DNA of 64,000 nucleotides from a virus, in IMG/VR virus record IMGVR_UViG_3300030381_000254, positions 69,982 to 133,981 of that record. One strand, given 5' to 3'. The notes below the pieces were generated by a model, which saw only the letters and a list, made by a program, of their open reading frames with translations, was not told where the DNA came from and did not search any database. Shown here piece after piece: positions 2,259-56,709 of this stretch. A program made the position numbers and the translations under genes. Every line of letters begins with the position of its first letter. Positions within the stretch are counted from its first letter, which is position 1.

Positions 2259-2579
2259 TTACTCCTTTCTAAATTTTATAAAATAAATACTGTCATCTTT
2301 TTCTCTTGTTACTGAAAATATGTATGTAGTATCTTCTTTTTGAATATACTTAACATATTGTTCTGTTATAACAGAGTCAGATCCAAAATACATACTTTTA
2401 CTCCAATTATAAAAGTTACTTTCAGGGATTAGATTACTAGCGCAAATACTATCAATTACATTTTCTGGAGTATTTGTATATATTTCGAAAAAAGTAGTTA
2501 AAAACTTTCTTTTAGTTGCACAAGATACAATAAAAAGAATAAAAATAGTTAATAATACTGAATATATAACTTTCTTCAT
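2259..2579 (-). CDS. Lipoprotein-like small protein, 106 aa
   Basis: MKKVIYSVLLTIFILFIVSC has a signal peptide and lipobox-like Cys. Confidence 0.45.
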   Translation of the reverse strand: MKKVIYSVLLTIFILFIVSCATKRKFLTTFFEIYTNTPENVIDSICASNLIPESNFYNWSKSMYFGSDSVITEQYVKYIQKEDTTYIFSVTREKDDSIYFIKFRKE

Positions 2580-5378: not shown

Positions 5379-8090
5379 TTATTTATTAAGTTGTTTCTTA
5401 AGCTCCTCTATTTCTTTCTTAAGAAGTTTAATTCCTTCAATAGCTAATATACTAAGCTTTGAATAATCTACCTCTTTTACTAAAACATAAGATTCGCCGT
5501 TAATTTCTACTTTATCAAACTTGCTAGGCTCATCTACATCAGATTCTTTTAATCTAGCTTCAGAAACTAGTTCTGGAAATTTATCTTCAACTTCTTGCGC
5601 TATAGTTCCAAAATCATTCTTTCCATTTAAGATAAATGAATCTGTAGGGATAGAACAAATATCTTCAAGAGAATGATCTAACGGTTTTATATTAGATTTC
5701 AATCTCTTATCAGAAGTTTGAAAGAATCCACTAGAAGCATTTACTCTTGTTAATGATATAGTACTATTCAAACTAAATGTATTTCCTGATAAACTTAAGT
5801 TAGTTCCAGCTGTATAAGTTTGATTATTATATGTAGCACCTTTAGTTAAAGTTAATTTAGTTCCACTAATAGATGCAGCTGTTATAGCATTACCAGTACC
5901 TGTGACTTCTACAGTTTGTACTTTAGAATTTAAAGCAGTTTGTGTAGCTGTAGATATAGGCTTATTTAAGTCACTAGTATTATCACAGTTTCCTAAACCT
6001 ACTTGAGCTTTAGTTACTCCATGAGGATTAGATTTATTTGCTATATGGTCATCTGCTTTTTTCTCTAACTTACCTAAAGCGGCATTAATACTATCTGTAG
6101 CAGCAATAGCAGATGTAGAAGTAGGTTTAGAATATCCAGTAACTTTTGCATTAGCACCAGTTATTACTGGATTAGTAGATATTTTTATACCATTAACAGT
6201 ATAATTATCTATAGTTCCTTTATTACTATTAATAGAAGACTGTAATTGATTCTCCTTTGTAGTAGCTCTAGAAACTTCAGCTTCTAATCTATCTTCTAAT
6301 TCTCCTAATGTATTTCCAGATTCAGTCGCAGTTCCTAAAATATCACTCTTAGTAGTATCTATTTTATTATCTAACTCTTTTTCTCTTGTGGTTGCTCTAC
6401 TAGTTTCTGCAGAAATTTGATTAGGTAAAGTAGTATCTAATTTTACTTTATCTGCAGCAGTCATAACACCCGCTAAAGATGATGTAGCAGAAGGTAATGT
6501 TATATTATTATTTGCTGATGCACCAGTTGATATCGTAGTTTTAGTAGCTGCAATTGCTACTGTACTAGCGTTAGGAGTTACTGCACCTAATGCAAAATTA
6601 GCAGTTGTAATTCTATCTAACTCAGTTTTGTCAGTAGAAGTCATAACACCTGCTAAAGATGATGTAGCGGCTCCTATAGAAACAGAATGTTCAGTTACAG
6701 TTCCTAAAGAATCATCTGATGAATTAGGATTAACACAAGAAAAATTTAATTTAACATCTGATGCAGATCTAGTAAACGCCGTATCATCTTTTACATGTGT
6801 TATAGCTGTCATAGCTTCTAAGTTTGTCAAAGCTATCTTATCTTTAGCAGTTACTGTACCTGCTTTAGTAGTACTAGATACTGGAAAATCAAATGTAGAA
6901 GTAGAATCTGCAGAATTTCCATTATCTTTCTTAACTGTAAAAGTAGCTTTAGATTCATTAGAAGTTACTGATATTCCACTAATATTATTAGTATTTAATC
7001 CATCTAATTTTGTTTTATCTGCAGCTGTTAATATACCAGCTTTAGACTGAGTTACTACTGGAATATCTGCAGTTTTAGTAACTACTGAAGAATTAGCACC
7101 AGCGGTTGATGATATATTCTTATAATTTAAAGTTACTGTATCTTCTGTAGTAGTAAATGTAGGAGTAGTTTCATCATCTGAATCATTTATCTTAGATATT
7201 GCTCCTAATTTATTCAACTGTTCAAGCTGATTCCTCTGATCAGCAGCTAACATTCCAGCATTAGTTAAACTAGCTGCTGGAATATCTGCAGTTTTTTCTA
7301 CAGTTGAACTAGTAGCTCCAGCTGTTGTATCAATGCATGTATAGTGAATTGTAGCCTTAGTTGCATCTGTAGTTATTACTCCACCGTCTTTTAAATGAGT
7401 AACTTCCCCTATTTTATTTAATTGATCTAATTGATCCTTTCCATCAGCTGTTAGTACCCCTGCTAAATCTCCAGTTGCAGCAGGAATATCCTCATATTTA
7501 GTTTCAATTGCACTAGTAGCTCCAGCTGTTGTACTAATACAATTATAATTAAATGTAAGTTTACTAGCTGATTTAGTAAATATTCCAGCATCTTTCATGT
7601 GAGATACTGAACCTATTTTATTTAATTGATCTAATTGATCCTTTCCATTAGCTGTTAGTACTCCAGCATTATCTCCGGTTGCAGCAGGAATAACTGCTAT
7701 TCCATCTTCACTAGTTTCTGAATTTTTCCAAGTATTATAATTCAAGGTTACATCATTTGCAGTAGTGGTAAAATTTTTTATCTTATCTGCACCATGAGAT
7801 TGAAGACTGTCAAATTCAGTATCAACATTCTGTAATTTTCTCCATCCACTAGCTTGTTTTCTATTAGCCCAATCATCTAATCTATATACACTTTTTTCCG
7901 AAATTACATACCATTCTTGACCAATTGCATCATTTCCAGTATTATTCTTAGATTTACTAAGAATTGCATCGGACAATTTATATAGTGCTTCCAGATTAGC
8001 AACTGTTCTATGACCTTGAATATGATCTGCAAACACTATACCAAATTCATCAGTATTTGCAGACTCAAGTGTTCCAGGATAACGTGCCAT
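5379..8090 (-). CDS. Tail fibre protein with C-terminal intramolecular chaperone (peptidase S74-like) domain, 903 aa
   Basis: The N-terminal ~90 aa are homologous to the N-terminus of the 2708-aa fibre (ANLEALYKLSDAIL...NTGNDAIGQEWYVISE). It has NPHGVTKAQVGLGN motifs and coiled-coil-like RATT(R/K)E repeats. The C-terminal 111 aa begin with SDKRLKSNI and end with an amphipathic helix (LSILAIEGIKLLKKEIEELKK), typical of auto-cleaving endosialidase-type chaperone domains. Confidence 0.65.
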   Translation of the reverse strand: MARYPGTLESANTDEFGIVFADHIQGHRTVANLEALYKLSDAILSKSKNNTGNDAIGQEWYVISEKSVYRLDDWANRKQASGWRKLQNVDTEFDSLQSHGADKIKNFTTTANDVTLNYNTWKNSETSEDGIAVIPAATGDNAGVLTANGKDQLDQLNKIGSVSHMKDAGIFTKSASKLTFNYNCISTTAGATSAIETKYEDIPAATGDLAGVLTADGKDQLDQLNKIGEVTHLKDGGVITTDATKATIHYTCIDTTAGATSSTVEKTADIPAASLTNAGMLAADQRNQLEQLNKLGAISKINDSDDETTPTFTTTEDTVTLNYKNISSTAGANSSVVTKTADIPVVTQSKAGILTAADKTKLDGLNTNNISGISVTSNESKATFTVKKDNGNSADSTSTFDFPVSSTTKAGTVTAKDKIALTNLEAMTAITHVKDDTAFTRSASDVKLNFSCVNPNSSDDSLGTVTEHSVSIGAATSSLAGVMTSTDKTELDRITTANFALGAVTPNASTVAIAATKTTISTGASANNNITLPSATSSLAGVMTAADKVKLDTTLPNQISAETSRATTREKELDNKIDTTKSDILGTATESGNTLGELEDRLEAEVSRATTKENQLQSSINSNKGTIDNYTVNGIKISTNPVITGANAKVTGYSKPTSTSAIAATDSINAALGKLEKKADDHIANKSNPHGVTKAQVGLGNCDNTSDLNKPISTATQTALNSKVQTVEVTGTGNAITAASISGTKLTLTKGATYNNQTYTAGTNLSLSGNTFSLNSTISLTRVNASSGFFQTSDKRLKSNIKPLDHSLEDICSIPTDSFILNGKNDFGTIAQEVEDKFPELVSEARLKESDVDEPSKFDKVEINGESYVLVKEVDYSKLSILAIEGIKLLKKEIEELKKQLNK

Positions 8091-8116
8091 ATTATATTAT
8101 TATTTAAATAAGTTCA

Positions 8117-8560
8117 TTAAGATTTAATTTTCATATAAAATACTCTATATTTAGCATTTCCACATCTATATGCTTCAACACCACCAACTACAATAGATAC
8201 TCCATATTTAGGACCGCCTGTAATAAGTTGTGCGTTTCCAGTAGGCTTATAGCAAACGCAATTAGACCACATTCCAGCATTAGTATCGTAATATACAATA
8301 GAGATTATCATATTTTCATATCCTTCTTCGGGCTCAGGTAAATTTATACTACTTATTACTCCATCACTGTCAGAAGTCCCTTCAATATATTCTATTTTCT
8401 GCGAATCTATATTGTTAGATGAATTATAATACTGTCCATGTGTATATATCTGATTAGTATCTTTAATAAAACATACCGATGTTTGGGATATTAGTCCGGC
8501 ATCTAAATCTGATTTAAAAGTATTATACGTATTATAATGAACTAATATATTTTCAATCAT
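8117..8560 (-). CDS. Hypothetical protein in tail fibre module, 147 aa
   Basis: ORF with fibre-module context only. Confidence 0.4.
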   Translation of the reverse strand: MIENILVHYNTYNTFKSDLDAGLISQTSVCFIKDTNQIYTHGQYYNSSNNIDSQKIEYIEGTSDSDGVISSINLPEPEEGYENMIISIVYYDTNAGMWSNCVCYKPTGNAQLITGGPKYGVSIVVGGVEAYRCGNAKYRVFYMKIKS

Positions 8561-8565
8561 TTTTA

Positions 8566-9549
8566 TTATTTAAAGTCTAATTTAACATTTTGGAATGCAC
8601 CTTTATTTTTAGAGGTGTATACATAATAAGTGATAGCTAAACCAGCATTATTAGTAACACTAACTTCAGTTCTATTAAAATCCTCAAGTACAGGTGCAGC
8701 ACCATTTTGTACAGCAGTAGTTAGTGCTCCAAGATCTTTTGGAAATGCATAACAATAATATTCTGTACTTTGTGCTGTAACTCCAGAAACTGATAAGTCG
8801 TTATTATTAGATAATTTTGATCCAGCCAAAGCTTTCACTTGACTTTGATTAGGAGCGCTTGCTGTAGTTACTCCATAATACAACTTTGACCATATATTAA
8901 TAGATACTTGATCAGAAGTATTATCATTTCCAGTAGCTTCTACTACAGAAGAACCACTAACCATAAATCCTTTTTTCTTTGCAGTTAGAGTTTCTTTTAT
9001 TGTTCTAGAAGCTGTTATATTATCTATAGTAACAGGATCAGATAGTACATCTGTAGTAGGAAGTTTTGTTCCTAAATCACCACTACAAGATGTAGGGGCT
9101 TTATTAGTAGTTGTCTTTGACCATTTAAATTGTCCAACATACTTTGCTTTATAACCTCTTTCAATAGTAATTGATTTAGCATGTTCATCAGATACTCCTA
9201 CTTCTTCTTTAGTAGCTTCTTCTCCAGAATTATCTTTGAATGTCCAAGTTCCTGATATTGAAGGAGTAGCTAATAATCTATCGGCAAATAATCTAGTATC
9301 TAGTGCCCAAGTAACTTCCCCTTCTTCACTTATAGATTGAACATAATATCCAGTTTCTTCATCTGTTACTAATACTTTAGCTCCAACTTCCAATCTTTCA
9401 ACTGGAATAGCATCTCTATCAGAAATTGACTTTACTGATTTAAATCCACCCATTCCATATATAGCGGAATGAGTAGGATAAACATCAGCTGTATTAGATG
9501 GAACGATGCCCGAATAGAGCACCGTTCCTTTTAAATTATTATTTGGCAT
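8566..9549 (-). CDS. Tail fibre-associated protein with shared C-terminal module, 327 aa
   Basis: The C-terminal ~70 aa (YYCYAFPKDLG...AGLAITYYVYTS...FQNVKLDFK) are homologous to the C-termini of 9549..17675 and 17687..19180. Confidence 0.5.
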   Translation of the reverse strand: MPNNNLKGTVLYSGIVPSNTADVYPTHSAIYGMGGFKSVKSISDRDAIPVERLEVGAKVLVTDEETGYYVQSISEEGEVTWALDTRLFADRLLATPSISGTWTFKDNSGEEATKEEVGVSDEHAKSITIERGYKAKYVGQFKWSKTTTNKAPTSCSGDLGTKLPTTDVLSDPVTIDNITASRTIKETLTAKKKGFMVSGSSVVEATGNDNTSDQVSINIWSKLYYGVTTASAPNQSQVKALAGSKLSNNNDLSVSGVTAQSTEYYCYAFPKDLGALTTAVQNGAAPVLEDFNRTEVSVTNNAGLAITYYVYTSKNKGAFQNVKLDFK

Positions 9550-12500
9550 TATTTATTCAATTTAACTTCAATATTCAATATTCCATTATACTTATTGCTT
9601 AATCGGTAGATTGTATATTCAGCTTTTCCTCCTGAAGCATTTACAACATTTCTACTAGTTTCAACAACATCAGTAACTAAGATATTATTTGCATAGATAG
9701 TATAATTAGTTGCATTCACTTTAGGTATTGCAACATAAATATATTTTCCACCTGTACAATCAAGCTTAGTTAAAGGAAGACTATTTTTCTCATTATCAAA
9801 GAATGAAGTCATAGCTTGTAATTCAGAATCACTAACAGTATTATTAGTTGAAGTTCCTACATATACTTTACTATAGAATTTAACTTGCAATTCTGCACTA
9901 GCTGAAATACCTCTATATCCGGCAGATAATACAAATGTAGTATCAGCTAAAACGTCAGTGATTGATAACGTTCTAGATGCAGGTTCCGCTACATTACCGT
10001 TAATATTTTGAGATTCAGGATTTTCTCCTTCACCTAAACCATTATATTCCCAGTTAAATTTAATAGTAGCATTTTCTCCAATTTCACATTCATATTTATC
10101 TGCTGTAAATGAAGTAATATCAAATCTAGTAACTTCATCTCTCTGATTTGATCCACTTAATCGATACCAAGTACCATAAGCATTAAATATAATATCATAA
10201 GGTAAAAACTCATAACCAAATCTTACACCTTGTCCTCTTACAATATAATAATCTCCTTCTTGCGCATTATTTCCTAAATCATTCTCTAACTTAGGAGAAT
10301 TAATATCAGCATCCCAGAAACCACGATAATGTAAACTATGAATAACTTGATCAGGTAATTGAGTAGTAGGAACCTTACCATCTACTAAATCTGCTTTCTT
10401 ATCAAGGGCTATTTGTGTAGCAGTAGATACAGGTTTATCCATATCAGCTGTATTATTCACATTTCCTAATCCAATTTGGAAAGCAGTAACACTATGAGGA
10501 TTATTCTTATCTGCAACATGAGCATTTAAGATTTCTCCTTGAGACGTAATTGTAGTAGTAAGATCTAATTTAATTTTATTTACTAATTCTTGAGTTGCAT
10601 TAGAGACTGGTTTCTCTAAGTCGTTAGTATTATCTACTCTATCAAGACCAACTTGGGCCTTTGTTACCTGATGAGGATTGCTATAATTTTGAGCATGAGC
10701 ATTTACTATTTGGGTAACACTATCACTTAATGCTGATAAAGCTTCTCTAGTAGCATTAGAAACTGGTTTATTTAAGTCACTTGTATTATCTACATTACCT
10801 AAACCAACTTGTTCTTTCGTTACTCCATGAGGATTTCTTACATCAGCAATATGATCATTAATACTCTTAGTTACTTCTGCTTTAGCTGCACTGATAGCTT
10901 CTGACTGAGCAGTAGATACAGGTTTATCTTTATCGGCTGTATTATCTACATTTCCTAATCCTACCTGTTCTTTTGTTACTTCATGAGGATTAGATTTATT
11001 TGCAATATGTGAAGTAAGTGTTTCACTTCCTTCTCCAATACTTTGCTCTAAATCTTCTTTAACCTTATCTATCGCTGCTTGAGTAGCAGTAGATACAGGT
11101 TTATCCATATCAGAAGTATTATCTACATTAGCTAAACCTACCTGTTCTTTTGTTACCTGATGAGGATTTTCAGTATTAGCTACATGCTCATTTAATTTAT
11201 CTGTAGTAGCTTTACCTTTATCTCCAGGATATGCTGTACTAGAAGTTTCACCAAGTGCTAAAGAAGAAGATATCTCAACGTATTTAGATCCACTCCAACG
11301 ATATATGATATTAGTATCTTTGGCTAAATAGATCTTTCCAATTTCTCCAACTTCTGGGAATTCATCAAGACTATCTGCTTCAACAATATCATCTACGAAG
11401 GAAGGCAATTGAGAACTAGGAACTTTTCCAGATTCATCAAGAGTAGCAACACCACTAGCAACTCCCATTTCAGAACGTTTAACCTGAGCGTCATTAGTTA
11501 CATTGCTTAATCCTACTTGTTCTTTTGTTACCTGATGAGGATTAGACTTATCTGCAATATGAGTAGTTACAGATTCACTTAATCTACTATCTAATTCATC
11601 TAATGCTCTTTGTGTAGCAGTAGATATAGGTTTATCTATATCTCTTGTATTATCTACATCTCCTAAACCAATCTGAGCTTTAGTAACTTCATGAGGATTA
11701 TTCTTATCTGAAGTATGAATAGTAATTTTAGCAGTTAAATCAGATTCAACTTTAGAAATTCTTGCTTCTTGAGCTAATGATACAGGCTTATTTTCATCAC
11801 TAGTATCATCAACGTTACCTAAACCAATCTGAGCTTTAGTAACTTTATGAGGATTATTTTCACTACTAACATGAGCAGTTAATGATGAATTTACTTTATC
11901 AACCTCTGGAAGAATTTCACTCTTAACTTTATCTATTGCTGCTTGTTGAGCTATAGATACTGGTTTATTTAAGTCCGCTGTATTATCTACATTTGCTAAA
12001 CCTACTTGTTCCTTCGTTACTCCGTGAGGATTATTTTTATTTTCTGTATGAAGTGTAATAGTTTGAGTTAAACTATCTTTCGTACTATTTATTAATTCTT
12101 TAGTAGCATTAGAAACTGGTTTATCTAAATCTGCAGTATTATCTACATTACCTAAACCTACTTGAGCTTTTGTTACTTCATGAGGATTAGATTTATTAGT
12201 AGTATGAGATTCTACATCAGATGTTATTTTATCTAGAGCTTCTTGTGTAGCAGTAGATATAGGTTTATCCATATCAGCTGTATTATCTACATTAGCTAAA
12301 CCCACTTGAGCTTTAGTAACATTATGAGGATTTTCAGTATTAGCTACATGTTCATTTAATTTATCTGTAGTAGCCTTACCTTTATTTCCTTCATAAGCTG
12401 TACCTTCAGTTTCCCCTAAATGTATAGGATTTCCAATTTCTACTAAATCAGTACCATCCCATCTATAGATATAATTAGTATCTCTGTTAGAATAAATAGT

Positions 12501-15500
12501 TCCTTTTTCAGGAGTCTTTCCTTCATCAACAGTTGTATCACTAATAGCTGTATAAATCTTCTTATCTTCTTTTACGTAGTAAGTAGTACCAACTACTAAT
12601 CTAGAAGTAGGAATTTGATCTTTACTATCTACAAAATGATCAATACCAAATACTTGAACTACTTTTCCAGGAAGTTGTGAATCTGGAATTTTTCCATTAT
12701 CATCAAGGGTAGCAACTCCGTTAAGAGCACCCATCTCAGAACGTTTAACCTGAGCATCATTAGTAACGTTACCTAAACCTACTTGTTCTTTCGTTACTCC
12801 ATGAGGATTATTTTTATCTGAAATATGTTCATCAATTTTTGAATTAACATCATTAAGTTGATTTAATTCAGCAAAGATAGAACCATCCCAACGATACATT
12901 TTATTCCCCAATCCAGAAGTAATATCTACATAGATAACTCCTGTAATAGGCTCATATGGATGTCCTTGTTTATCATTAAAAGTAGTTTCATTAATGTATT
13001 TACCTTCCAATACATTTATAGCTTCCTTAGGTATTTGTGCCTGAACTAATTTTCCATTAGAGTCTAAAGTAGCAATACCATTAGGTTGTGCTAAAGAATC
13101 ATTAATAGCTTTTAATCCACTAGTTAATACATCTAAAGCTTCTTGTGTAGCAGTAGATATAGGTTTATTCAAGTCACTTGTGTTATCAACTTCACTTAAA
13201 CCAATATCTTCTTTATCTAATACAGGATTTTCAGATATCTTATAACCATTAATAGTATAATTATCTGTAGTTTCTTTATTAGAATCAATATTTTGTTTAA
13301 GTTCGTCTTTAACTGCATCTAATGCTGCTTGTTGAGCTTTAGATACTGGTTTATTAACGTCACTTGTATTATCTACATCTCCTAAACCCACTTGAGCTTT
13401 AGTAACTTGATGTGGATTTTCGAAATCTTCTAAATGAGAATTTACTTTATCAGTAGTTTCTTTACCTTTATCTCCAGGATATGCTGTTCCAGCTATTTCT
13501 CCTAAATGTATAGGATTTCCAATTTCTACTAAATCAGTACCATCCCATCTATAAATTATATTAGTATCTCTATCTGAGTATATTACTCCTTTTTCTGGAG
13601 TCTTTCCCTCATCTAGAGATGTATCACTAATAGCTGTATAAATTTTCTTCTCAAGTTTTGCATAATAAGTAGTTCCGGTATCTAATCTAGAAGTAGGAAT
13701 TTGATCTTTACTATCTACAAAATGATCAATACCAAATACTTCATCTACTTGACCTGGTAATTGCCATGTTGGAATTTTTCCATTTATATCAAGAGTAGCG
13801 ACTCCTTCAGCAACTCCCATTTCTGTTCTCTTAACTTGAGCATCATTAGTTACATTTCCAAGACCTATTTGTTCTTTTGTTACTTCATGAGGATTAGATT
13901 TATTATCAATGTGATCTAATATATCTTGCTCTATATCTCCAGTTTGGCAAAGTTTAACAAACGCTGTACCATTCCAACGATATATATTATTATTAGATCC
14001 ATCAGTAATATCTACATAAATTATTCCTAATGCTGGAGTGTATGGAGAATCTGACCTATCATTAAAAGTAGTTTCATTAATATACTTACCTTCTAGTACA
14101 TTAATTGCTTTACTTGGAATTTGAGATTCTACCAATTTTCCATTAGAATCTAGAGTAGCAATTCCATCAGGTTGAGCTAATGAATCATTTAATTTATTAG
14201 CTAGTTCTTTAACTGAATCTAAATCAGATTGTGCTGCTTTAGAATTCAATTCATCTGTTAAACCACTAATATCTGCAATTTCAATTACTACTTCTCCAGA
14301 CTTTCCATTAACAGATTTTACTGCATCTACATTATCTACCTTAGCCCAATTTCCACCGTTATTAATTACCCAATCTCCAGGTTCGAAATTTATACCGAAT
14401 TGAGATCCAGCAATCGAAACAACATAATATTTTCCAGAATTCTCTGGAGAATTATCTGTTAACTCCGGTATATTCTTAGAAGCATCCCAAGTTCCTGAAT
14501 ATCTTACATTTCCTAATACTGAATCAGGTAATTGAGAACTAGGAACTTTTCCAGATTCATCAAGTGTAGCAACTCCTTCTGCTATACCCATTTCAGCTCT
14601 TTTAACCTGAGCATCATTAGTAACATTACCTAATCCTACCTGTTCTTTTGTTACTTGATGAGGATTAGACTTATCTGCAATATGAGCCTCTACTTTAGAA
14701 TCTACTGTATCAATATTTCCTTGTAATTCTTCTTTTGCTACATTTACGGCTTCATCTACTATATCTTTAATCGAAGTATTTTCATCAATACCTTCAGAAA
14801 GAGTATCTAATTTCTTTTTATCTTCCTTAGACATAGTACCATTAGCTTCCTGTGTAGCTGTAGGTAAATTTGTAGTTGCTAATTCAGTAAAATCTTTAGA
14901 AGTTAGATCATAACTCCAACTATTAGAATCAGCAAATATTTCCCCATAGTAAGTATAAGTTCTCCATACTCCTGTAGTATCTAAAAATTTACACTTAACT
15001 CCAGGTACTCTATATTTAGGATCAGCGTAGCTATCTAATTTAGATATAGCTAATTGAATAGTCCACTGATCTTTATTATCTCCTTGTCCTTCTCCTGGGA
15101 AAAGAGACGTAACATTATATACTATATCTGAATGCTCTTGTAATTTCTTCAATGCATCTAACGTAGCAGTAGAAATCGGCTTATCCATATCAGATGTATT
15201 ATCTACATTTCCTAAGCCAACCTGTTCTTTAGTAACATTATGAGGATTTTCAGTATTAGAAGTATGAGCTTCCAAATCTACCTGAGAAGCTTTAGAATCT
15301 AATTCATCTCTTAAATTTGGAATATCTTCAATAACTAATTCTACTATTCCATCTTTACCATTAACAGATTTTACTGCGTCTACGTTATCTACCTTAGACC
15401 AAGATCCATTACTATTAATTACCCAATCTCCTGCGTCAAAATCAAATCCAAATTGAGATCCCGGAACATCAACAATATAGTAATGTCCATTATCTTCTTC

Positions 15501-17675
15501 ATTTCCTTCTACTAGTTCAGGAGTATTTGTGGAAGCGTTCCAAGTACCCATAAACTTAACATTTCCTAATACAGAATCAGGAAGTTGTGAATCTGGTACT
15601 TTTCCATTATTATCAAGGGTAGCAACACCATTAGCAACTCCCATCTCAGAGCGCTTAACTTGAGCATCGTCCGTAACATTTCCAAGGCCAATGTCAGTTT
15701 TATTTAAGACAGGATTTTCAGATATCTTATAACCATTAACAGTATAATTATCTATTACTTCTTTAGTATCTTCTACGATTTCATTAATCTTATCTACTAT
15801 AGAAACGCCTTCTCCTATACCTTCGGAAAGAGTATCTAATTTCTTCTTATCTTCCTTAGACATAGTACCGTTAGCCTCTTGTGTAGCGGTAGGTAAATCT
15901 ACAGTTGCTAATTCAGTAAAATCTTTAGAAGTTAGATCATATTTCCAAGAACTTACGTCAGTAAATACTTCTCCATAGAAAGTATAAGTTCTCCACTTTC
16001 CATCCTCAGTTATTAATTTAATCTTAACTCCTGGAACTTTGTACTTACTATCAATTGTACCACTTAGTCTAGATATTGCGGATTGTAAATTCCATTGATC
16101 TTTATTATCTCCTTGTCCTTCTCCTGGAAAGAGATCAACTATATTAAATAATACTTCAGTATGTGAAATTAATTCATCTAAAGCTTCTTGAGTAGCAGTA
16201 GATATAGGTTTATCCATATCAGAAGTATTATCTACGTTTCCAAGACCAACATCTTCTTTATTTAAGACAGGATTTTCAGATATCTTATAACCATTAACAG
16301 TATAATTATCTATTACTTCTTTAGTATCTTCTACGATTTCATTAATCTTATCTACTATAGAAACACCTTCCTCTATGCCTTCAGAAAGAGTATCGAATTT
16401 CTTCTTATCTTCCTTAGACATAGTACCATTAGCTTCTTGTGTAGCTGTAGGTAAATTTGTTGTAGCTAATTCAATAAAATCTTTAGAAGTTAGATCATAG
16501 TTCCATTTAGATTCATCTAATATTTCGGAAGATTCTCCATAGAAAGTATAAGTTCTCCACTTATCTTCATTAGATAAAAATTTTATTTTAATACCTGCTA
16601 ATCTTTCTTCATCTGATAATAGTGAATCTAATTTAGATATGGCTCTAGTTAAAGTCCATTGATTCTTATTATCTCCCATTCCTTCATTAGGAAAAAGAGT
16701 ATTAATATTATAGAGATATTCTGTATGAGATTGCATTTCATCTAGATCAGACTTATACTCTTCTTTTACTTTATTATCTCCTGCATTAATGGCTTCTTGA
16801 ACCCCGCTTAATTTTAGCCCGTTTTCAGATAAACTTAAAAAATCTTCACTACTTTCGTCTCTAAGTATTCCAATAGTAGGATCATTTTTTGTTCCTTCTA
16901 TAATAATACCCTTTCCTTCTGTAGCGGTGATGCTATGAACTGTATTTTCATTTAATGAATCTATCTGATCTTTTAACTCTTTTCCTTGAGATGCTCCTAA
17001 TACTTGTTCAGATTCACCTCCTTCTAAAGAATTAATTATATCAGTTTTCTTTACATATAATTTTTCAGCATCTTCCTTCTTAAGATACGGCTCTAATTCG
17101 ATACCTAAATCATATTCTCCTAATTTCTCCCAAGCTCTAGATTCAAATCCAGCCTCATCATAGACAGTAGTAAGAATATATTCTATATATTTTTGATTCT
17201 CTCCTTCATTTTCTGTTTTTCTTAAGATATATATCTTATTAAACTTTGCTTCTTTTAAAGGAGGAAGTTCATCAACAAATATAAAAATTTCAGTATCCAA
17301 CGTACAAGAAATGATATTATCTTCTGAAATATTAATTCCTGTACCAGCTGTTAACTTATCTTGTTTTTTCTTTAATTCTTCTTGTAATTGATCTTCGGTA
17401 ACATATTCACCTAAAGAGGATTTCCAACCCTCTTCTGAATGACGATTATCCCAACTAATTAATTTATAATTAGATGCTTCACTAACTACATACCATTCTT
17501 GACCAATTGCATCATCTCCAGTATTATCTCCACTATCAGACAATATACAATCTGGTATTTTATACAAAGCTTCTAGAGATGATACAGTTTTGTGTCCTGA
17601 GATTTCTATAGCTCTCGCAATCCCATAACTTTTAGGATTATTAGACACTAATATATCTGCAAATTTTAATGCCAT
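9549..17675 (-). CDS. Giant tail fibre protein, 2708 aa, highly repetitive
   Basis: Its N-terminus is shared with fibre 5379..8090. There are more than 20 tandem copies of a ~35-aa unit NPHxVTKEQVGLGNVDNTSDxDKPVSxATQ. There are three ~185-aa repeats (…LTSKDFTELATTNLPTATQEANGTMSKEDKKKLDTLSEGI…) with near-identical DNA, and repeated …IYRWDGTDLVEIGNPIHLGE… blocks. It shares the C-terminal module with its neighbours. Confidence 0.7.
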   Translation of the reverse strand: MALKFADILVSNNPKSYGIARAIEISGHKTVSSLEALYKIPDCILSDSGDNTGDDAIGQEWYVVSEASNYKLISWDNRHSEEGWKSSLGEYVTEDQLQEELKKKQDKLTAGTGINISEDNIISCTLDTEIFIFVDELPPLKEAKFNKIYILRKTENEGENQKYIEYILTTVYDEAGFESRAWEKLGEYDLGIELEPYLKKEDAEKLYVKKTDIINSLEGGESEQVLGASQGKELKDQIDSLNENTVHSITATEGKGIIIEGTKNDPTIGILRDESSEDFLSLSENGLKLSGVQEAINAGDNKVKEEYKSDLDEMQSHTEYLYNINTLFPNEGMGDNKNQWTLTRAISKLDSLLSDEERLAGIKIKFLSNEDKWRTYTFYGESSEILDESKWNYDLTSKDFIELATTNLPTATQEANGTMSKEDKKKFDTLSEGIEEGVSIVDKINEIVEDTKEVIDNYTVNGYKISENPVLNKEDVGLGNVDNTSDMDKPISTATQEALDELISHTEVLFNIVDLFPGEGQGDNKDQWNLQSAISRLSGTIDSKYKVPGVKIKLITEDGKWRTYTFYGEVFTDVSSWKYDLTSKDFTELATVDLPTATQEANGTMSKEDKKKLDTLSEGIGEGVSIVDKINEIVEDTKEVIDNYTVNGYKISENPVLNKTDIGLGNVTDDAQVKRSEMGVANGVATLDNNGKVPDSQLPDSVLGNVKFMGTWNASTNTPELVEGNEEDNGHYYIVDVPGSQFGFDFDAGDWVINSNGSWSKVDNVDAVKSVNGKDGIVELVIEDIPNLRDELDSKASQVDLEAHTSNTENPHNVTKEQVGLGNVDNTSDMDKPISTATLDALKKLQEHSDIVYNVTSLFPGEGQGDNKDQWTIQLAISKLDSYADPKYRVPGVKCKFLDTTGVWRTYTYYGEIFADSNSWSYDLTSKDFTELATTNLPTATQEANGTMSKEDKKKLDTLSEGIDENTSIKDIVDEAVNVAKEELQGNIDTVDSKVEAHIADKSNPHQVTKEQVGLGNVTNDAQVKRAEMGIAEGVATLDESGKVPSSQLPDSVLGNVRYSGTWDASKNIPELTDNSPENSGKYYVVSIAGSQFGINFEPGDWVINNGGNWAKVDNVDAVKSVNGKSGEVVIEIADISGLTDELNSKAAQSDLDSVKELANKLNDSLAQPDGIATLDSNGKLVESQIPSKAINVLEGKYINETTFNDRSDSPYTPALGIIYVDITDGSNNNIYRWNGTAFVKLCQTGDIEQDILDHIDNKSNPHEVTKEQIGLGNVTNDAQVKRTEMGVAEGVATLDINGKIPTWQLPGQVDEVFGIDHFVDSKDQIPTSRLDTGTTYYAKLEKKIYTAISDTSLDEGKTPEKGVIYSDRDTNIIYRWDGTDLVEIGNPIHLGEIAGTAYPGDKGKETTDKVNSHLEDFENPHQVTKAQVGLGDVDNTSDVNKPVSKAQQAALDAVKDELKQNIDSNKETTDNYTINGYKISENPVLDKEDIGLSEVDNTSDLNKPISTATQEALDVLTSGLKAINDSLAQPNGIATLDSNGKLVQAQIPKEAINVLEGKYINETTFNDKQGHPYEPITGVIYVDITSGLGNKMYRWDGSIFAELNQLNDVNSKIDEHISDKNNPHGVTKEQVGLGNVTNDAQVKRSEMGALNGVATLDDNGKIPDSQLPGKVVQVFGIDHFVDSKDQIPTSRLVVGTTYYVKEDKKIYTAISDTTVDEGKTPEKGTIYSNRDTNYIYRWDGTDLVEIGNPIHLGETEGTAYEGNKGKATTDKLNEHVANTENPHNVTKAQVGLANVDNTADMDKPISTATQEALDKITSDVESHTTNKSNPHEVTKAQVGLGNVDNTADLDKPVSNATKELINSTKDSLTQTITLHTENKNNPHGVTKEQVGLANVDNTADLNKPVSIAQQAAIDKVKSEILPEVDKVNSSLTAHVSSENNPHKVTKAQIGLGNVDDTSDENKPVSLAQEARISKVESDLTAKITIHTSDKNNPHEVTKAQIGLGDVDNTRDIDKPISTATQRALDELDSRLSESVTTHIADKSNPHQVTKEQVGLSNVTNDAQVKRSEMGVASGVATLDESGKVPSSQLPSFVDDIVEADSLDEFPEVGEIGKIYLAKDTNIIYRWSGSKYVEISSSLALGETSSTAYPGDKGKATTDKLNEHVANTENPHQVTKEQVGLANVDNTSDMDKPVSTATQAAIDKVKEDLEQSIGEGSETLTSHIANKSNPHEVTKEQVGLGNVDNTADKDKPVSTAQSEAISAAKAEVTKSINDHIADVRNPHGVTKEQVGLGNVDNTSDLNKPVSNATREALSALSDSVTQIVNAHAQNYSNPHQVTKAQVGLDRVDNTNDLEKPVSNATQELVNKIKLDLTTTITSQGEILNAHVADKNNPHSVTAFQIGLGNVNNTADMDKPVSTATQIALDKKADLVDGKVPTTQLPDQVIHSLHYRGFWDADINSPKLENDLGNNAQEGDYYIVRGQGVRFGYEFLPYDIIFNAYGTWYRLSGSNQRDEVTRFDITSFTADKYECEIGENATIKFNWEYNGLGEGENPESQNINGNVAEPASRTLSITDVLADTTFVLSAGYRGISASAELQVKFYSKVYVGTSTNNTVSDSELQAMTSFFDNEKNSLPLTKLDCTGGKYIYVAIPKVNATNYTIYANNILVTDVVETSRNVVNASGGKAEYTIYRLSNKYNGILNIEVKLNK
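11700..13700 (-). repeat. Tandem array of ~105-nt (35-aa) NPHxVTKEQVGLGNVDNTSD fibre repeats
   Basis: A recurrent DNA motif recurs, ...cctaaaccaacttg(t/a)(t/g)ctttcgttac(t/c)ccatgaggatt.... More than 20 peptide repeats are visible in the translation. Confidence 0.65.
14640..16750 (-). repeat. Intragenic ~185-codon repeats in the giant fibre gene, three copies
   Basis: The DNA is near-identical at about 16255..16515 and 15700..15960, for example ...tttcagatatcttataaccattaacagtataattatctattacttctttagtatcttctacgatttcattaatcttatctactatagaaac.... A third copy lies around 14790..14960. Confidence 0.7.
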
Positions 17676-17686
17676 TGTAATTATAT

Positions 17687-19180
17687 TTATTTAAATTCTA
17701 TAGTAACATTAGTAAATACTCCTGGATGATTTGTAATATATACTTTATAATCAATTCCAATTCCAGCTGCATTGATAACTTCTATTGAGTTTTCAAATTT
17801 ATGAAAAGCTCCTAGAATTGGAAAACCATCCTGATAAATACCTTTCAAGTCACCTAAAGAATCTGGAAAGGCTATTAAATAATACTCATCTTCATCTGTA
17901 GTTACACCTTCTACTTTAGTTTCTAAATTTCCTTCTAAAATTAGTTTAGTATCAGATAAAGATCTAATATCATATTCAACTATATCTTTTTCAGATCCTT
18001 TATGTAAAGTTCCGTAATATATTCTATCAGCAAAAGATACTTTTCTTTTATCTTCAGTTACATCTATTTTCCCATTACTATAAATTACATCTTCTCCTCT
18101 AACCATAAATCCAGTTTTAGGAGCCTCAAGCTTAATTAAAAACTCTGTATCTTCAGTAACATATGTAGATGTAAACATAGAAGACTCTACCCCACTAGGA
18201 GTTAATTCTTTCCACGTTGAATCTTCCGATATGCTAATTGGATCTTTTTTTCCTTCCTCAGATTTCCAAGAATACACTCCTTTAAATACTACTTTATAAC
18301 CCTTTTCTATAATTGGATTATCTCTATCAGGACTTGGATATACTGAAATAGGTTTAAATGAATTATTATAAAATTCCCAAGAACAACTAATTTTAGGAAC
18401 TACTAATTCTTTATTTTCATCCAATAAACTATCTAAATTATCTACTATCTCTAGTAATGATTTAGAAGTACTTTCTACTGCTGATGTAAATACTAAAGTG
18501 TCATTATTAAGAGTAATTACTTCTTTATAATATTTTCCTTTAAATATCCACTCAATAGTAAGAATATGTTTACATTGATATTCACACTCTATAGTACATG
18601 CAGAAGCCGTTACAGGAACTATTCCTCTTCCTTCGTTTACCTTCATTGCTACTATAGACGCAGATAATTTCAATGATTCACAAAGTTTCTTAAATTTATC
18701 TGCTCCTCCAAAAACTTCAGAAATCTCTTCACTAGTACTTTCGCTAGTTAATTCTGAGGTCTTTAATGGAAGTAATAAAACTTTACTATTTATTAAATTT
18801 AATACTTCATTTTCAGACAATGCAAAAAAAGTACCAGCAGTCCAAATCTGTCTAGTCTCTTTTATATACACTATAGATGATTCAGGAATTACTCCTGCAG
18901 ATAGATCTAATTCAAAGCTTTCAATTAAATCATAAACTCTAAAGAAATTACCCCAAAATAAATCTACTCTAGGATCTCTTAAATCTATAATATTTCCAGC
19001 GGAATTTTTTGCCCAGATACTTTCATGACCTTCAAATAATCCTAAACCAAGTTCTCCAACCTCTAATTGTTCTGGTTTAGGCATTTTTCCTTCTTCTATA
19101 GAATTCTTTAATATAATAATAGAAGGAAGAGGAAGCTGGGTATTATCCACTACATTTTTTAATTCTTCACTATTATTCAT
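17687..19180 (-). CDS. Tail fibre or baseplate-associated protein with shared C-terminal module, 497 aa
   Basis: The C-terminus (YYLIAFPDSLG...AGIGIDYKVYIT...FTNVTIEFK) is homologous to the C-termini of the two upstream genes. Confidence 0.5.
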   Translation of the reverse strand: MNNSEELKNVVDNTQLPLPSIIILKNSIEEGKMPKPEQLEVGELGLGLFEGHESIWAKNSAGNIIDLRDPRVDLFWGNFFRVYDLIESFELDLSAGVIPESSIVYIKETRQIWTAGTFFALSENEVLNLINSKVLLLPLKTSELTSESTSEEISEVFGGADKFKKLCESLKLSASIVAMKVNEGRGIVPVTASACTIECEYQCKHILTIEWIFKGKYYKEVITLNNDTLVFTSAVESTSKSLLEIVDNLDSLLDENKELVVPKISCSWEFYNNSFKPISVYPSPDRDNPIIEKGYKVVFKGVYSWKSEEGKKDPISISEDSTWKELTPSGVESSMFTSTYVTEDTEFLIKLEAPKTGFMVRGEDVIYSNGKIDVTEDKRKVSFADRIYYGTLHKGSEKDIVEYDIRSLSDTKLILEGNLETKVEGVTTDEDEYYLIAFPDSLGDLKGIYQDGFPILGAFHKFENSIEVINAAGIGIDYKVYITNHPGVFTNVTIEFK

Positions 19181-19776
19181 TTCCTAAGACATTTAGTACA
19201 TTCAGGAATATCATTATTTACTCTCCATCCTGTATTCGTTACATCATTATAATTATAATAAGAATAACTTTCATCTTCGGGATAAACCCCGGAAGTCCAA
19301 TTTTCAAAGTCTGATACACTTTGTCCAGGAGAACATTCATTTCCACACGGACATTCATTTATCGGATTTTGATATAAAAGGTTTTGATATTGAAACTTTA
19401 TTCTAACTAATAAAGCTGTAATTACATTACTCCAGGAATAGATAAATCTATCTTGATTATATGGAATTTCTTCATTATCTACATAAATCTCTCCATTATC
19501 TATTCCTAACTCTCTTCTAAGATCATCAACATCCCCGTATATAATCTTTGTTTCTCCATGTTCCTTAATATCAAATATCTCTTGAATACTTACTTCAATA
19601 TCTGAACCTTCTGGGAGTAAAGTTAATCTTTTACTTATATAGTCTAAAGTATAAGTAATGTACGGTGCTAATTCACATCTTAAAGAATAATCTATTTGTG
19701 ATATTCCTAAGACAGATTTAATATTTTGAAGAGCTACTTTGTAAATGATATATCCATTTTTATCATTCCACTTCAT
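19177..19776 (-). CDS. Hypothetical structural protein with Cys-rich C-terminus, 199 aa
   Basis: CPCGNECSPGQ...CTKCLRK is a possible zinc ribbon. The gene sits in the structural block. Confidence 0.35.
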   Translation of the reverse strand: MKWNDKNGYIIYKVALQNIKSVLGISQIDYSLRCELAPYITYTLDYISKRLTLLPEGSDIEVSIQEIFDIKEHGETKIIYGDVDDLRRELGIDNGEIYVDNEEIPYNQDRFIYSWSNVITALLVRIKFQYQNLLYQNPINECPCGNECSPGQSVSDFENWTSGVYPEDESYSYYNYNDVTNTGWRVNNDIPECTKCLRK

Positions 19777-19777
19777 A

Positions 19778-20161
19778 TTAATCTTTCACTTCAAAAATAG
19801 TAACACCATTAATCATTATTTTGACTAATGATTTTGTTTCTGGGTTTAAGAAAAAGTATAATCTATCCTTTTCAAATTGAAGAATACTGCTAGCATCAGT
19901 TACCACATCAATTCCTTTACAACTTTCTGATTGCATTATTTTATCAGAAACTGAAATTTGAATACCCTTTTTTGTATTTCCATAACAATCAGAGTTACAA
20001 GTAGCATCTGCAATTCTAATACCATCTCCTTCTAATATTTCAGAAGGACTTATTGCATTTGTATATAAATCTGAAATAGCGTTTTCAATCTTATTAAGAT
20101 TAGCTGCATTAACTGGAGTTTTATTATCAATCCAGGTTGTTTTTATGTAATTATTTTTCAT
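19778..20161 (-). CDS. Hypothetical protein, 127 aa
   Basis: ORF in structural block with tight gene packing. Confidence 0.35.
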   Translation of the reverse strand: MKNNYIKTTWIDNKTPVNAANLNKIENAISDLYTNAISPSEILEGDGIRIADATCNSDCYGNTKKGIQISVSDKIMQSESCKGIDVVTDASSILQFEKDRLYFFLNPETKSLVKIMINGVTIFEVKD

Positions 20162-20182: not shown

Positions 20183-20545
20183 TTACCACTCTCCTCCATC
20201 AATTATATCAAATGGAGCAGACCAATTATCTTCATTTATCCAATTTTCCTCGTCAGTATTAGCACCCTTATAAATAAACTCTAGAAAATTTCCTTCAGAT
20301 CCTAAAAATCTTATTTTCATACCTAATCTTCTTCTAGACTCAGGAACTAATAATACAGCGGTACTTAAATTAAACTTTCTTGAGAAATCATTAGCTTCGG
20401 AATTAATATTACAGAAATCCTTTATTATCTCATTTATATAATTTACACCAGAATTAGCTGTATTATTTACAGAGTTGAAATCCTGATGTGATAAAGAATC
20501 TCCTAATTTCTTCATTCCTACACCAGATGTATTTAATAAATCCAT
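20183..20545 (-). CDS. Hypothetical protein, 120 aa
   Basis: ORF in structural block. Confidence 0.35.
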   Translation of the reverse strand: MDLLNTSGVGMKKLGDSLSHQDFNSVNNTANSGVNYINEIIKDFCNINSEANDFSRKFNLSTAVLLVPESRRRLGMKIRFLGSEGNFLEFIYKGANTDEENWINEDNWSAPFDIIDGGEW

Positions 20546-55728: not shown

Positions 55729-56709
55729 AGTAAACCGTCAACCTTCATTACATGAGTATAGTACTTTTGCAATGAAGTTAAGAATTCATGAGGATTATAC
55801 AATACATTTTCCTATTCAAGTATGTGAACCATTAAATGCTGACTTTGATGGTGATACTGTATCAATACAGTTAGTTCCGCCTGAAGCAGCTGAAGAGACT
55901 TATGAAAGAATGAGTCCTAGATATGTTACAATTTATAAAAAGAATAATGAACCTATTTATAAATTTAATCACGAAACACTTAATGGTTTAGCAGTTGCGA
56001 CTGAATATTCATACTCTGATTTGGAAGAATTGAAAGATCCTAAATATTTTTATACTGATTATGTTCAGTTATTAAAGGATGTAGAAATAGAAAAGAAAAT
56101 CAAAGTTGGAACACCGATTGTATTTACAGGAAAAATAGGGAATGTAGATTATCAATCTAAAGTTACAAGTTATGGTAGACTTCGTATTTCTAAAATACTT
56201 GATGCTGATATAGATAAAATTGGTATATTTAGTAATGAGTTTGAACGTATTAGTGCTAAGAGTGCAGCTAAGTTAAGTCTTTATTTAAATCAATTCGAAG
56301 ATGGAGTTGAAAAGAGAAAAGCACTTACTAAATTTGCTCTTCGCGTAGTTAGCATGGCTGGAGTAGTAACGTTTGATTATAAAACACTGTATGCTGATTG
56401 TGATACGGAGACTTATAAGAGAATTTGTAACGTAGCAGATTCTAAAGAACTTACAGATAAACAGAAACTTTTGATAATGACTCAAGAATTTAAGAAATAT
56501 GAGGACGAAGTTTCTGCAAGTTTTAGTTCTGATTTGAAAAATGAACTTGATAGAGCAGCTCGTGTTAAATTATCATCTATTGTAGCAATGTCAATGCCAC
56601 AGTTTATAACTTCAGGAGTTGATGAAAAACCTGTAATTACTCGTGGAACATTGTTATCTGGTTACACAGAGAAAGATTATCAATTACATGCAATAGAAAA
56701 TCGAAGCTT
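55729..56709 (+). CDS. rpoC: RNA polymerase beta' subunit, exon 2 (catalytic NADFDGD region); 3' end approximate
   Basis: VNRQPSLHEYSTFAMKLRIHEDYTIHFPIQVCEPLNADFDGD aligns to E. coli NRAPTLHRLGIQAFEP...NADFDGD. A bridge-helix-like SGY motif lies near the end. The exon end was chosen at the U at 56709, 70 nt upstream of the P element, the same spacing as in intron 1. Confidence 0.6.

What the first reader, a model, noticed from the sequence alone, without database searches (positions are those of the whole stretch)
8566..19180. Shared C-terminal ~70-aa module on three consecutive fibre-region genes and shared N-terminal anchor on two fibres
The genes 8566..9549, 9549..17675 and 17687..19180 all end with a homologous module (Y-Y-x-x-A-F-P-x-x-L-G...A-G-[IL]-x-I-x-Y-x-V-Y...F-x-N-V-x-[IL]-[DE]-F-K). 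The fibres 5379..8090 and 9549..17675 share an N-terminal ~90-aa domain with about 70% DNA identity (7900..8010 against 17492..17600). This points to modular shuffling. The shared C-terminal module may be a common receptor-binding, carbohydrate-binding or trimerisation unit.
Basis: seen in the sequence. Interest (0 to 1): 0.55.

Follow-up and report, generated by a model that had tools for sequence, protein, structure and literature searches.

The report
Plug-and-socket connectors joining phage tail fibres
Three neighbouring tail-fibre genes of a giant gut phage end in the same unannotated domain, and in this and many other phages a gene ending in that domain is almost always followed directly by a gene starting with a matching "anchor" domain, which suggests the two domains are a socket and plug that join fibre proteins end to end.

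Summary
g327 (8566-9549), g497 (17687-19180) and the 2708-aa fibre g2708 (9549-17675) all end in one homologous module. g903 (5379-8090) and g2708 share a ~90-aa N-terminal domain (54% aa identity; 67.6% DNA identity at 7900-8010).

The module is larger than reported: about 240 aa, made of an Ig-like sandwich plus a 105-aa beta-sandwich. The g2708 copy is a divergent subtype (C').

The main new result concerns gene order. In 140 of 140 canonical cases, covering 12 clusters at 50% identity, a gene ending in the module is directly followed by a gene starting with the N-anchor. These cases include jumbo phages, crAss-like phages, 41-kb phages and a TAG-recoded phage. The divergent C' is instead followed by the divergent N' domain of g327-type proteins, in three lineages, and I saw no cross-pairing.

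My reading is a lock-and-key docking pair that builds a serial fibre, g497-g2708-g327-g903, analogous to T4 gp34-37 and T2 gp37/gp38. This is inferred from gene neighbourhood only; no binding was tested.

The parts
17687..19180 (-). g497, a 497-aa fibre-region protein and the proposed proximal segment of the chain. Its own N-terminal region carries other fibre-type motifs.
   Evidence: ORF. An ortholog at 54.5% identity sits in the same position in related jumbo phages.
17690..18439 (-). Canonical C-module of g497 (aa 248-497): an Ig-like sandwich plus the C-terminal beta-sandwich.
   Evidence: The outside profile gives E=7e-78 and covers HMM positions 5-248. It is followed 11 nt later by the start of g2708.
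17391..17675 (-). N-anchor of g2708 (aa 1-95).
   Evidence: 54% identical to the g903 N-terminus. N-anchor HMM E=6e-40.
9549..17675 (-). g2708, a 2708-aa giant fibre carrying the N-anchor, a long repetitive shaft (16 'NPH.VT..Q.GL' repeats and other repeated modules) and the divergent C' module.
   Evidence: ORF. Repeat map. Multiple PHROG tail-fibre hits. Ortholog lengths range from 1765 to 2984 aa.
9552..10112 (-). Divergent C' module of g2708 (about aa 2522-2708).
   Evidence: Outside profile E=4.8e-10 for the last ~105 aa. hhalign probability 97.2%, E=3.7e-11 over 173 columns. Its stop codon overlaps the g327 ATG by 1 nt.
9301..9549 (-). N' domain of g327 (aa 1-83), a remote homologue of the N-anchor.
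   Evidence: hhalign against the N-anchor gives probability 83%, E=8.7e-6 over 58 columns. The first 35 residues are conserved in the alignment consensus but have pLDDT near 40 in the monomer model.
8569..9285 (-). Canonical C-module of g327 (aa 89-327).
   Evidence: Outside profile E=2e-89. In the AF2 model the pLDDT is mostly 90-98 over aa 90-327, with a dip to about 73-79 around aa 190-210. The C-domain modelled alone has pLDDT 95.6.
8117..8560 (-). g147, a small ORF inserted between g327 and g903. Its aa 4-50 resemble g497 aa 78-124. Its role is unknown.
   Evidence: blastp 38% identity, E=8e-9; z=11.9. L116 has a gap of matching size at this position. Related jumbo phages have no gene here.
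7806..8090 (-). N-anchor of g903 (aa 1-95).
   Evidence: N-anchor HMM E=6.5e-41. Alignments.
5379..8090 (-). g903, a 903-aa fibre carrying the N-anchor, a shaft and a C-terminal intramolecular-chaperone domain. It is the proposed distal segment.
   Evidence: ORF. PHROG tail-fibre hits.
5565..5714 (-). Peptidase_S74 (endosialidase-type intramolecular chaperone) domain of g903, aa 793-842.
   Evidence: Pfam PF13884, E=1.9e-9, 38.1 bits against a cut-off of 22.

Best explanation
The shared C-terminal module and the shared N-terminal 'anchor' are two halves of one connector. The C-module is about 240 aa, an Ig-like sandwich followed by a 105-aa beta-sandwich, and acts as a socket at the distal end of one fibre protein. 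The N-anchor is about 90 aa, a conserved N-terminal peptide plus a small beta domain, and acts as the plug of the protein encoded by the next gene.

The connector comes in at least two matched subtypes: canonical C with canonical N, and divergent C' with divergent N'. In this jumbo phage it is used three times in a row. The four gene products would therefore assemble head to tail in gene order: g497 (proximal, ends in C), then g2708 (starts with N, ends in C'), then g327 (starts with N', ends in C, a short connector or knee), then g903 (starts with N; its distal tip matures through an S74 intramolecular chaperone).

What is shown: the homologies, the domain architecture, the gene order, the subtype-specific pairing, and the absence of any annotated family. 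What is inferred: physical binding, the oligomeric state, and a linear rather than branched chain.
For: 1. Adjacency holds in both search directions. L048 also does once shorter ORFs are allowed. Loci retrieved through the N-anchor: 62 of 62 are preceded by a gene ending in the C-module.

2. Combined table: canonical C followed by canonical N in 140 of 140 cases, and C' followed by N' in 5 loci. No C-to-N' pairing was seen. The only two 'C' followed by N' entries (L086, L087) look like a canonical C-module split across two adjacent ORFs, because the upstream ORF matches the Ig-like part of the profile. Only 4 partial C-domains are unpaired. 12 of 16 clusters at 50% identity contain a paired member.

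3. The paired lineages are diverse:
- jumbo phages of 290-401 kb;
- crAss-like cr131_1 and cr109_1, where the plug heads a 1,126-aa protein annotated as a phosphatase;
- 41-kb phages;
- contigs of 150-290 kb with C-proteins of 1,293-1,816 aa;
- a TAG-recoded phage;
- contigs binned as Bacteroidaceae, Prevotella and Ca. Muiribacterium.

4. Everything else in both proteins varies while the two junction domains persist at only 24-40% aa identity. The constraint is therefore at protein level, not a DNA recombination site.

5. The C' then N' then C then N triple recurs in three lineages: the window, L116 and L015 (jumbo phages), L120 and L122.

6. Genes are translationally coupled or nearly so: TAATG at g2708/g327 and an 11-nt gap at g497/g2708.

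7. The first 35 residues of g327 are conserved in sequence but have pLDDT near 40 in the monomer model. This is consistent with, but does not show, a peptide that orders on a partner.

8. Most N-anchor proteins in nature are only about 155-161 aa. That is too short for a baseplate-anchored fibre but fits a cap on a fibre tip.

9. Precedent for the logic: T2-type gp37 C-terminal subtypes are each invariably associated with one gp38 N-terminal subtype, which was read as lock and key (PMC3157838). The T4 long tail fibre is a serial gp34-gp35-gp36-gp37 assembly from clustered genes (PMC3004832).
Against: No binding was tested.

The sampled loci were found through short motif patterns, and many come from one metagenome (3300045988). 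They cover only 16 clusters at 50% identity, out of at least 3,059 clusters that carry the module, so the rule may not be universal.

The homology of N' to N rests on hhalign probability 83%. The giant-fibre C' of several relatives falls below HMM thresholds.

In the window, g147 is interposed between g327 and g903.

The C-domain is confidently predicted as a self-contained monomeric sandwich (pLDDT 95.6), which says nothing about how a trimeric fibre would present it.

P0174 carries an internal second N-anchor that is not at a gene start.
Confidence: 0.55

Rival explanations
1. The C-module is the distal receptor- or glycan-binding tip shared by three fibres of different length. The N-anchor attaches g903 and g2708 to the same kind of site on the baseplate. 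The C-then-N gene order would then be inherited synteny of a fibre gene cluster.
Against: Receptor-binding tips are normally the most variable part of a fibre. Here the last ~70 aa are the best-conserved part across crAss-like, jumbo and small phages.

Synteny alone does not explain 140 of 140 adjacency while everything else is reshuffled, nor the subtype-specific pairing of C with N and C' with N'.

Most N-anchor proteins are only about 160 aa. In cr109_1 the N-anchor heads a 1,126-aa enzyme-like protein.

Confidence: 0.2
2. The downstream N-anchor protein is an assembly factor or chaperone (Tfa or T4-gp38-like). It binds the C-module transiently to fold the upstream fibre and is not a permanent structural link.
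For: The arrangement of a fibre gene followed by a small gene (about 155-161 aa in most family members) mirrors fibre/Tfa gene pairs. An interaction between the two domains would also explain the adjacency and subtype pairing.
Against: In this window the N-anchor proteins are themselves large fibres. g2708 has 16 fibre repeats, and g903 has its own S74 chaperone. In cr109_1 the N-anchor protein is 1,126 aa.

No Pfam hit to tail-fibre assembly families was found on the window's fibre-region proteins, including g903 and g2708. The short ~160-aa N-anchor proteins were not scanned against Pfam.

The conserved part is N-terminal and the variable part C-terminal, which is the layout of an attached payload.
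Confidence: 0.1
3. The C-module is a C-terminal folding nucleus or trimerisation unit, playing the role that the S74 chaperone plays in g903. The downstream N-anchor is unrelated to it.
Against: The module is predicted with high confidence as two self-contained monomeric sandwiches. It also occurs on short, non-fibrous proteins such as g327 and the ~297-aa proteins with a ~50-aa N-terminal part. This model does not explain the adjacency or the subtype pairing.
Confidence: 0.1

Closest known systems
T2/T6-type gp37-gp38 lock-and-key (adhesin docked on the long-tail-fibre tip)
   Same: The upstream fibre's C-terminus and the downstream protein's N-terminal attachment domain come in matched subtypes that are invariably associated in genomes. 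The rest of the downstream protein is the variable payload (PMC3157838). The same pattern is seen here for C/N and C'/N'.
   Different: There is no sequence or fold relationship. No Pfam or PHROG match to gp37 or gp38 families was found for these domains. The payload here ranges from a 60-aa stub to a 2,700-aa fibre, and the connector is used iteratively, three times in one operon. Binding is not demonstrated here.
T4 long tail fibre, a serial assembly of gp34-gp35-gp36-gp37
   Same: Several clustered genes encode consecutive segments of one compound fibre. The N-terminus of the first protein binds the baseplate, and short proteins form the knee or joint (PMC3004832). g327 (327 aa) would play a gp35/gp36-like connector role.
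   Different: The T4 junctions are not reported to be built from one repeated, portable domain pair (from my own knowledge of T4, not tested here). Here the same pair recurs at each junction and across unrelated phage families. The serial order here is inferred from gene order only.
Branched tailspike or fibre systems with adaptor domains (CBA120 TSP1-4, G7C gp63.1/gp66, DT57C LtfA/LtfB, phiKp24)
Peptidase_S74 intramolecular-chaperone fibres (endosialidase, T5 pb1 type)
   Same: g903 has this domain at its C-terminus (PF13884, E=1.9e-9).
   Different: The shared C-module of g327, g497 and g2708 is not an S74 domain; it has no Pfam hit.

Membership tests
T2-type gp37/gp38 lock-and-key pair | C-terminal subtype of the upstream fibre is invariably associated with one N-terminal subtype of the downstream protein | tested here: met
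   C followed by N in 140 of 140 cases; C' followed by N' in 5 loci from 3 lineages; no cross-pairing seen. This is analogy, not homology.
T2-type gp37/gp38 lock-and-key pair | Sequence homology to gp38 (glycine-rich motifs, hypervariable segments) or to the gp37 tip | tested here: not met
   No Pfam, PHROG or NCBIfam hit of that kind on the C-module or N-anchor.
T2-type gp37/gp38 lock-and-key pair | Physical attachment of the downstream protein to the fibre tip | not testable with these tools
   No multimer prediction or experiment was available.
T4-type serial long tail fibre | Consecutive genes encode consecutive fibre segments that bind C-terminus to N-terminus | tested here: inconclusive
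   The gene order g497, g2708, g327, (g147), g903, with matched junction domains and coupled start and stop codons, is compatible. Assembly order was not observed.
T4-type serial long tail fibre | Homology to gp34, gp35, gp36 or gp37 | tested here: not met
   PHROG hits are generic fibre-repeat families only, and none falls on the junction domains.
Peptidase_S74 intramolecular chaperone (PF13884) | Pfam match above the gathering score at the C-terminus | tested here: met
   Met for g903 only: 38.1 bits against a cut-off of 22, aa 793-842. Not met for g327, g497 or g2708.
Carbohydrate-binding or Ig-like beta-sandwich modules (CBM, FN3, PKD, BACON-like) | Significant fold or sequence match to a defined CBM or lectin family | tested here: inconclusive
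Tail fibre assembly proteins (Tfa / Caudo_TAP) | Pfam or PHROG match of the downstream protein to a Tfa family | tested here: not met
   No such hit on g903, g2708 or g147.
Pfam DUF7418 (PF24193) | Score above the gathering threshold | tested here: not met
   g497 aa 354-393 scores 16.3 bits against a cut-off of 27, E=0.013. The family is absent from the other members scanned.

The most novel reading that the evidence does not exclude
A portable plug-and-socket connector with matched subtypes lets phages of gut and marine Bacteroidota, including crAss-like phages and jumbo phages, hang interchangeable payloads on the end of another fibre, and even daisy-chain fibres. The socket is the C-module and the plug is the N-anchor. 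Payloads include stubs, fibres and enzyme-like proteins. This jumbo phage would chain four proteins, about 4,400 aa per protomer, into one compound fibre through three successive connectors. If so, gene order would predict fibre assembly order in a large body of uncultured phages.
Probability: 0.4. Interest if true: 0.7.

Novelty: new variant of a known kind. Interest (0 to 1): 0.55.

Why it matters
Shared modules among tail-fibre genes are routine on their own. What stands out is a widespread domain pair with no annotation: the C-module is in at least 3,059 clusters at 50% identity, and the N-anchor gave 229 hits even in a limited search. The two domains sit on either side of a gene junction with near-perfect regularity and come in matched subtypes.

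If they are a physical connector, three things follow:
- There is a simple rule for reading fibre architecture and assembly order from sequence in crAss-like and other Bacteroidota phages, whose receptor-binding apparatus is largely unknown.
- It explains how payloads are swapped without disturbing attachment.
- It offers a natural, orthogonal (two-subtype) docking system for engineering phage host range.

It would also justify two new domain families in Pfam and PHROGs.

Tried and rejected
- Near-identity DNA search of 8000-20000 against GenBank phages found no match.
- Pfam, PHROGs and NCBIfam scans of the module proteins and of ten distant family members found nothing above threshold. There was only a sub-threshold DUF7418 hit, which I rejected.
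- Profile searches of PDB sequences with the C-module and N-anchor alignments found nothing.
- I considered recent duplication or gene conversion as the source of the shared N-anchor and rejected it. The paralogous N-anchors show the same 51-54% identity across genomes as within the window, which gives no sign of within-genome homogenisation, and a relative at 46-73% protein identity keeps all the modules.
- I considered a conserved DNA recombination site at the junction and rejected it, because conservation is at protein level with only 24-40% aa identity between lineages.
- My first hhalign of the giant-fibre C-termini was contaminated with unrelated long ORFs. I repeated it cleanly.
- The genome-contig scan with the broad alignment failed for lack of a conserved stretch. 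I repeated it with a narrower alignment.
- A mirror-tree or DCA co-evolution test was not attempted. There are too few independent pairs and the phylogenetic confounding is strong.


Full report
**Context.** The window has about 28% G+C, and its first 31 kb is a run of minus-strand genes. The region 2.6-20.5 kb is a fibre cluster, transcribed in this order: g199, g497 (17687-19180), g2708 (9549-17675), g327 (8566-9549), g147 (8117-8560), g903 (5379-8090), g909 (2595-5324).

g2708, g903 and g909 hit many PHROG tail-fibre families through repeat motifs. g903 ends in a Peptidase_S74 intramolecular-chaperone domain.

Close relatives are IMG/VR viral genomes of 290-401 kb with the same gene order, so this is a jumbo phage. 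One 371-kb contig that is 98% identical over the 250-aa g327 C-module is deposited as an 'uncultured Mycoplasmatota bacterium' MAG.

**Checking the observation.**
- g327 and g497 are homologous over about 250 aa, not 70: 33% identity, E=4e-31, z=45 against shuffles.
- The g2708 C-terminus matches g327 at z=8.9, with 0 of 500 shuffles reaching the score, but matches g497 only marginally.
- To avoid circularity I built a profile from 147 outside relatives. Among all 232 window ORFs of at least 50 aa it hits only g327 (2e-89), g497 (7e-78) and the end of g2708 (4.8e-10). The next best ORF is at 0.18.
- Profile-profile comparison of eight giant-fibre C-termini with the family gives probability 97.2%, E=3.7e-11 over 173 columns and spans both subdomains.
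- The shared N-terminal domain of g903 and g2708 is 54% identical over 82 aa (E=2e-23, z=39). DNA identity at 7900-8010 is 67.6%.

Both observations are confirmed. The corrections are that the module is larger than reported and that the g2708 copy is a divergent subtype, which I call C'.

**What the module is.**
- An exhaustive HMMER search of 1.84 billion cluster representatives finds 3,059 clusters at E no higher than 1e-3, and 248 at E no higher than 1e-30.
- In the listed hits the match runs to the C-terminus, behind N-terminal parts from a few residues to about 1,100 aa that share little with one another.
- None of Pfam, PHROGs, NCBIfam or PDB sequences recognises it.
- AlphaFold2 with a 27-sequence alignment gives a confident model of g327 (pLDDT 84 overall, mostly 90-98 for aa 90-327). 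It shows a small N-terminal domain (aa 36-83), an Ig-like sandwich (about aa 97-228) and a C-terminal beta-sandwich (aa 229-327). The first 35 residues are unstructured.
- The C-domain modelled alone has pLDDT 95.6.
- Foldseek against BFVD finds the module in crAss-like phages (cr131_1, cr109_1, cr52_1 and others). More remote matches lie in other uncultured phages, some labelled tail fibre protein, and in Tenacibaculum and Cellulophaga phages.
- tblastn places it in unannotated genes of Suoliviridae crAss-like genomes, next to 'minor structural protein', 'phosphatase' and 'internalin-like receptor-binding protein' genes.

**The unexpected regularity.**
While aligning N-anchors I saw that in unrelated small phages the gene right after the C-module gene begins with the N-anchor. 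I tested this systematically.
- Of 49 viral loci retrieved through a C-module motif, 47 have an N-anchor gene starting within about 100 nt downstream on the same strand. One of the two exceptions, L048, also has it once shorter ORFs are allowed.
- Of 62 new loci retrieved independently through an N-anchor motif, all 62 are preceded by a gene ending in the C-module.
- The pair is also present in cr109_1, where the N-anchor heads a 1,126-aa protein annotated as a phosphatase. That genome reads TAG as a sense codon, which had broken my stop-to-stop ORFs.
- It is present in another TAG-recoded phage, and in contigs binned as Bacteroidaceae, Prevotella and Ca. Muiribacterium.
- In total 140 of 144 C-module instances, in 12 of 16 clusters at 50% identity, are paired. 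The four unpaired ones are partial or weak matches.

**A second, matched subtype.**
- The g327 N-terminal domain (N') is a remote homologue of the N-anchor: hhalign probability 83%, E=8.7e-6.
- The divergent C' of the giant fibre is followed by N' in the jumbo phages.
- The same C', then N'...C, then N triple recurs in two other lineages. One is a 109-kb phage (L120), where C' sits on a 545-aa protein. The other is L122.
- No C-to-N' pairing was seen. The only two 'C' followed by N' entries (L086, L087) look like a canonical module split across two ORFs.

In the window the rule therefore holds at all three junctions: g497(C)|g2708(N), g2708(C')|g327(N') and g327(C)|[g147]|g903(N). The genes are 11 nt apart, overlap as TAATG, or are separated only by the small g147.

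**Interpretation.**
Two domains persist on either side of a gene boundary at 24-40% aa identity while everything else in both proteins is exchanged, and they come in matched subtypes. This is the signature that was read as a lock-and-key interaction for the T2-type gp37 C-terminus and gp38 N-terminus (PMC3157838).

Serial fibres assembled from clustered genes are established for T4 gp34-gp37 (PMC3004832).

I therefore propose that the C-module is a socket and the N-anchor a plug. This phage would chain g497, g2708, g327 and g903 head to tail, with the S74-matured end of g903 as the distal tip.

Two further observations are consistent with this. The first 35 residues of g327 are conserved but predicted to be disordered. 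Most N-anchor proteins in nature are only about 155-161 aa.

This is inference from comparative genomics. No binding was tested, the stoichiometry is unknown, and a branched rather than linear arrangement is equally compatible.

**Limits.**
- The loci were found through short motif patterns, and many come from one metagenome, so they sample a small part of the family.
- The homology of N' to N is only moderately supported.
- C' in several relatives falls below HMM thresholds, although it is clearly orthologous.
The module could both dock a partner and bind glycans. However, they do not explain the adjacency or the subtype pairing.

**Verdict.** The most likely function is a fibre-to-fibre connector, a new variant of a known principle built from two unannotated and widespread domains. 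Interest is moderate, and would be higher if binding is confirmed.

Noticed in passing
L116 (CASEGV010000001.1, 370,971 bp): A 371-kb contig that is 98% identical over the 250-aa g327 C-module (the only stretch compared) is deposited and used in GTDB as an 'uncultured Mycoplasmatota bacterium' MAG. It is almost certainly a low-GC jumbo phage genome that was mis-binned as a bacterium.
   Followed up: partly
window 9549-17675 and orthologs in L001-L025: The giant fibre varies from 1,765 to 2,984 aa among the related jumbo phages fetched, whose g327 C-modules are all about 70-73% identical to the window's. The flanking genes stay in the same order. This points to rapid expansion and contraction of the internal repeat modules (16 'NPH.VT..Q.GL' units, 3 'WRTYTFYGE' domains, 5 'YRW' units and others).
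   Followed up: partly
window 8117-8560 (g147) and 18809-18949 (g497 aa 78-124): g147 is an extra small gene between g327 and g903. L116 has a gap of matching size at this position, while other relatives (L001-type) have no gene there. Its N-terminal 47 aa are 38% identical to an internal segment of g497. The same 'SIVFIKDT..IWTHG.FY' motif heads several fibre-like proteins in L121.
   Followed up: partly
P0204, P0207, P0244, P0282, P0298, P0202; L123 7213-8097; L026 10727-11863: N-anchor proteins of very different lengths tend to end in a similar short C-terminal motif ('..D[IV]D.LWN', 'VDALWK', 'IDTLF'). This may be another conserved docking or termination element.
   Followed up: no
window 19778-20161 (g127) and L120 8361-9998: The g127 N-terminus (MKNNYIKTTWIDNKTPVNAANLNKIENAI) matches the N-terminus of the 545-aa C'-bearing protein of phage L120. 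What is one protein there may be split between g127 and other genes here.
   Followed up: no
window 20183-20545 (g120) and g2708 aa 352-391: g120 shares a short motif (KIRFLG...F.YKG...W) with a domain that is repeated three times in g2708. blastp E=0.005 in the small local database, so the match is weak.
   Followed up: no
L004 (cr109_1) and L121 (GCA_002127135.1 contig): In-frame stop codons fall at glutamine positions of conserved motifs, for example 'G*LWFVV' and 'IT*NDAY'. These phages use a reassigned stop codon, which breaks naive ORF-based scans.
   Followed up: partly
window 31250-32758, 38813-40438, 46817-47872, 55772-56773, 59037-62225 (+ strand): The plus-strand half of the window encodes a flotillin/SPFH protein, a GroEL-type chaperonin, an MreB/actin-like protein and pieces of a multisubunit RNA polymerase (Rpb1- and Rpb2-like). 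These are typical jumbo-phage cargo.
   Followed up: no
window 2259-2579 (-): A 106-aa ORF just downstream of the fibre genes has a lipoprotein-type signal peptide (MKKVIYSVLLTIFILFIVSC...).
   Followed up: no
L120 17339-18559: A reverse-transcriptase gene (PF00078) lies about 4 kb downstream of the fibre cluster in the 109-kb phage L120. It may belong to a diversity-generating retroelement. I did not look for one in the window.
   Followed up: no
window 6628-7050 (+): A 140-aa TTG-start ORF lies antisense within g903. It is most likely spurious.
   Followed up: no
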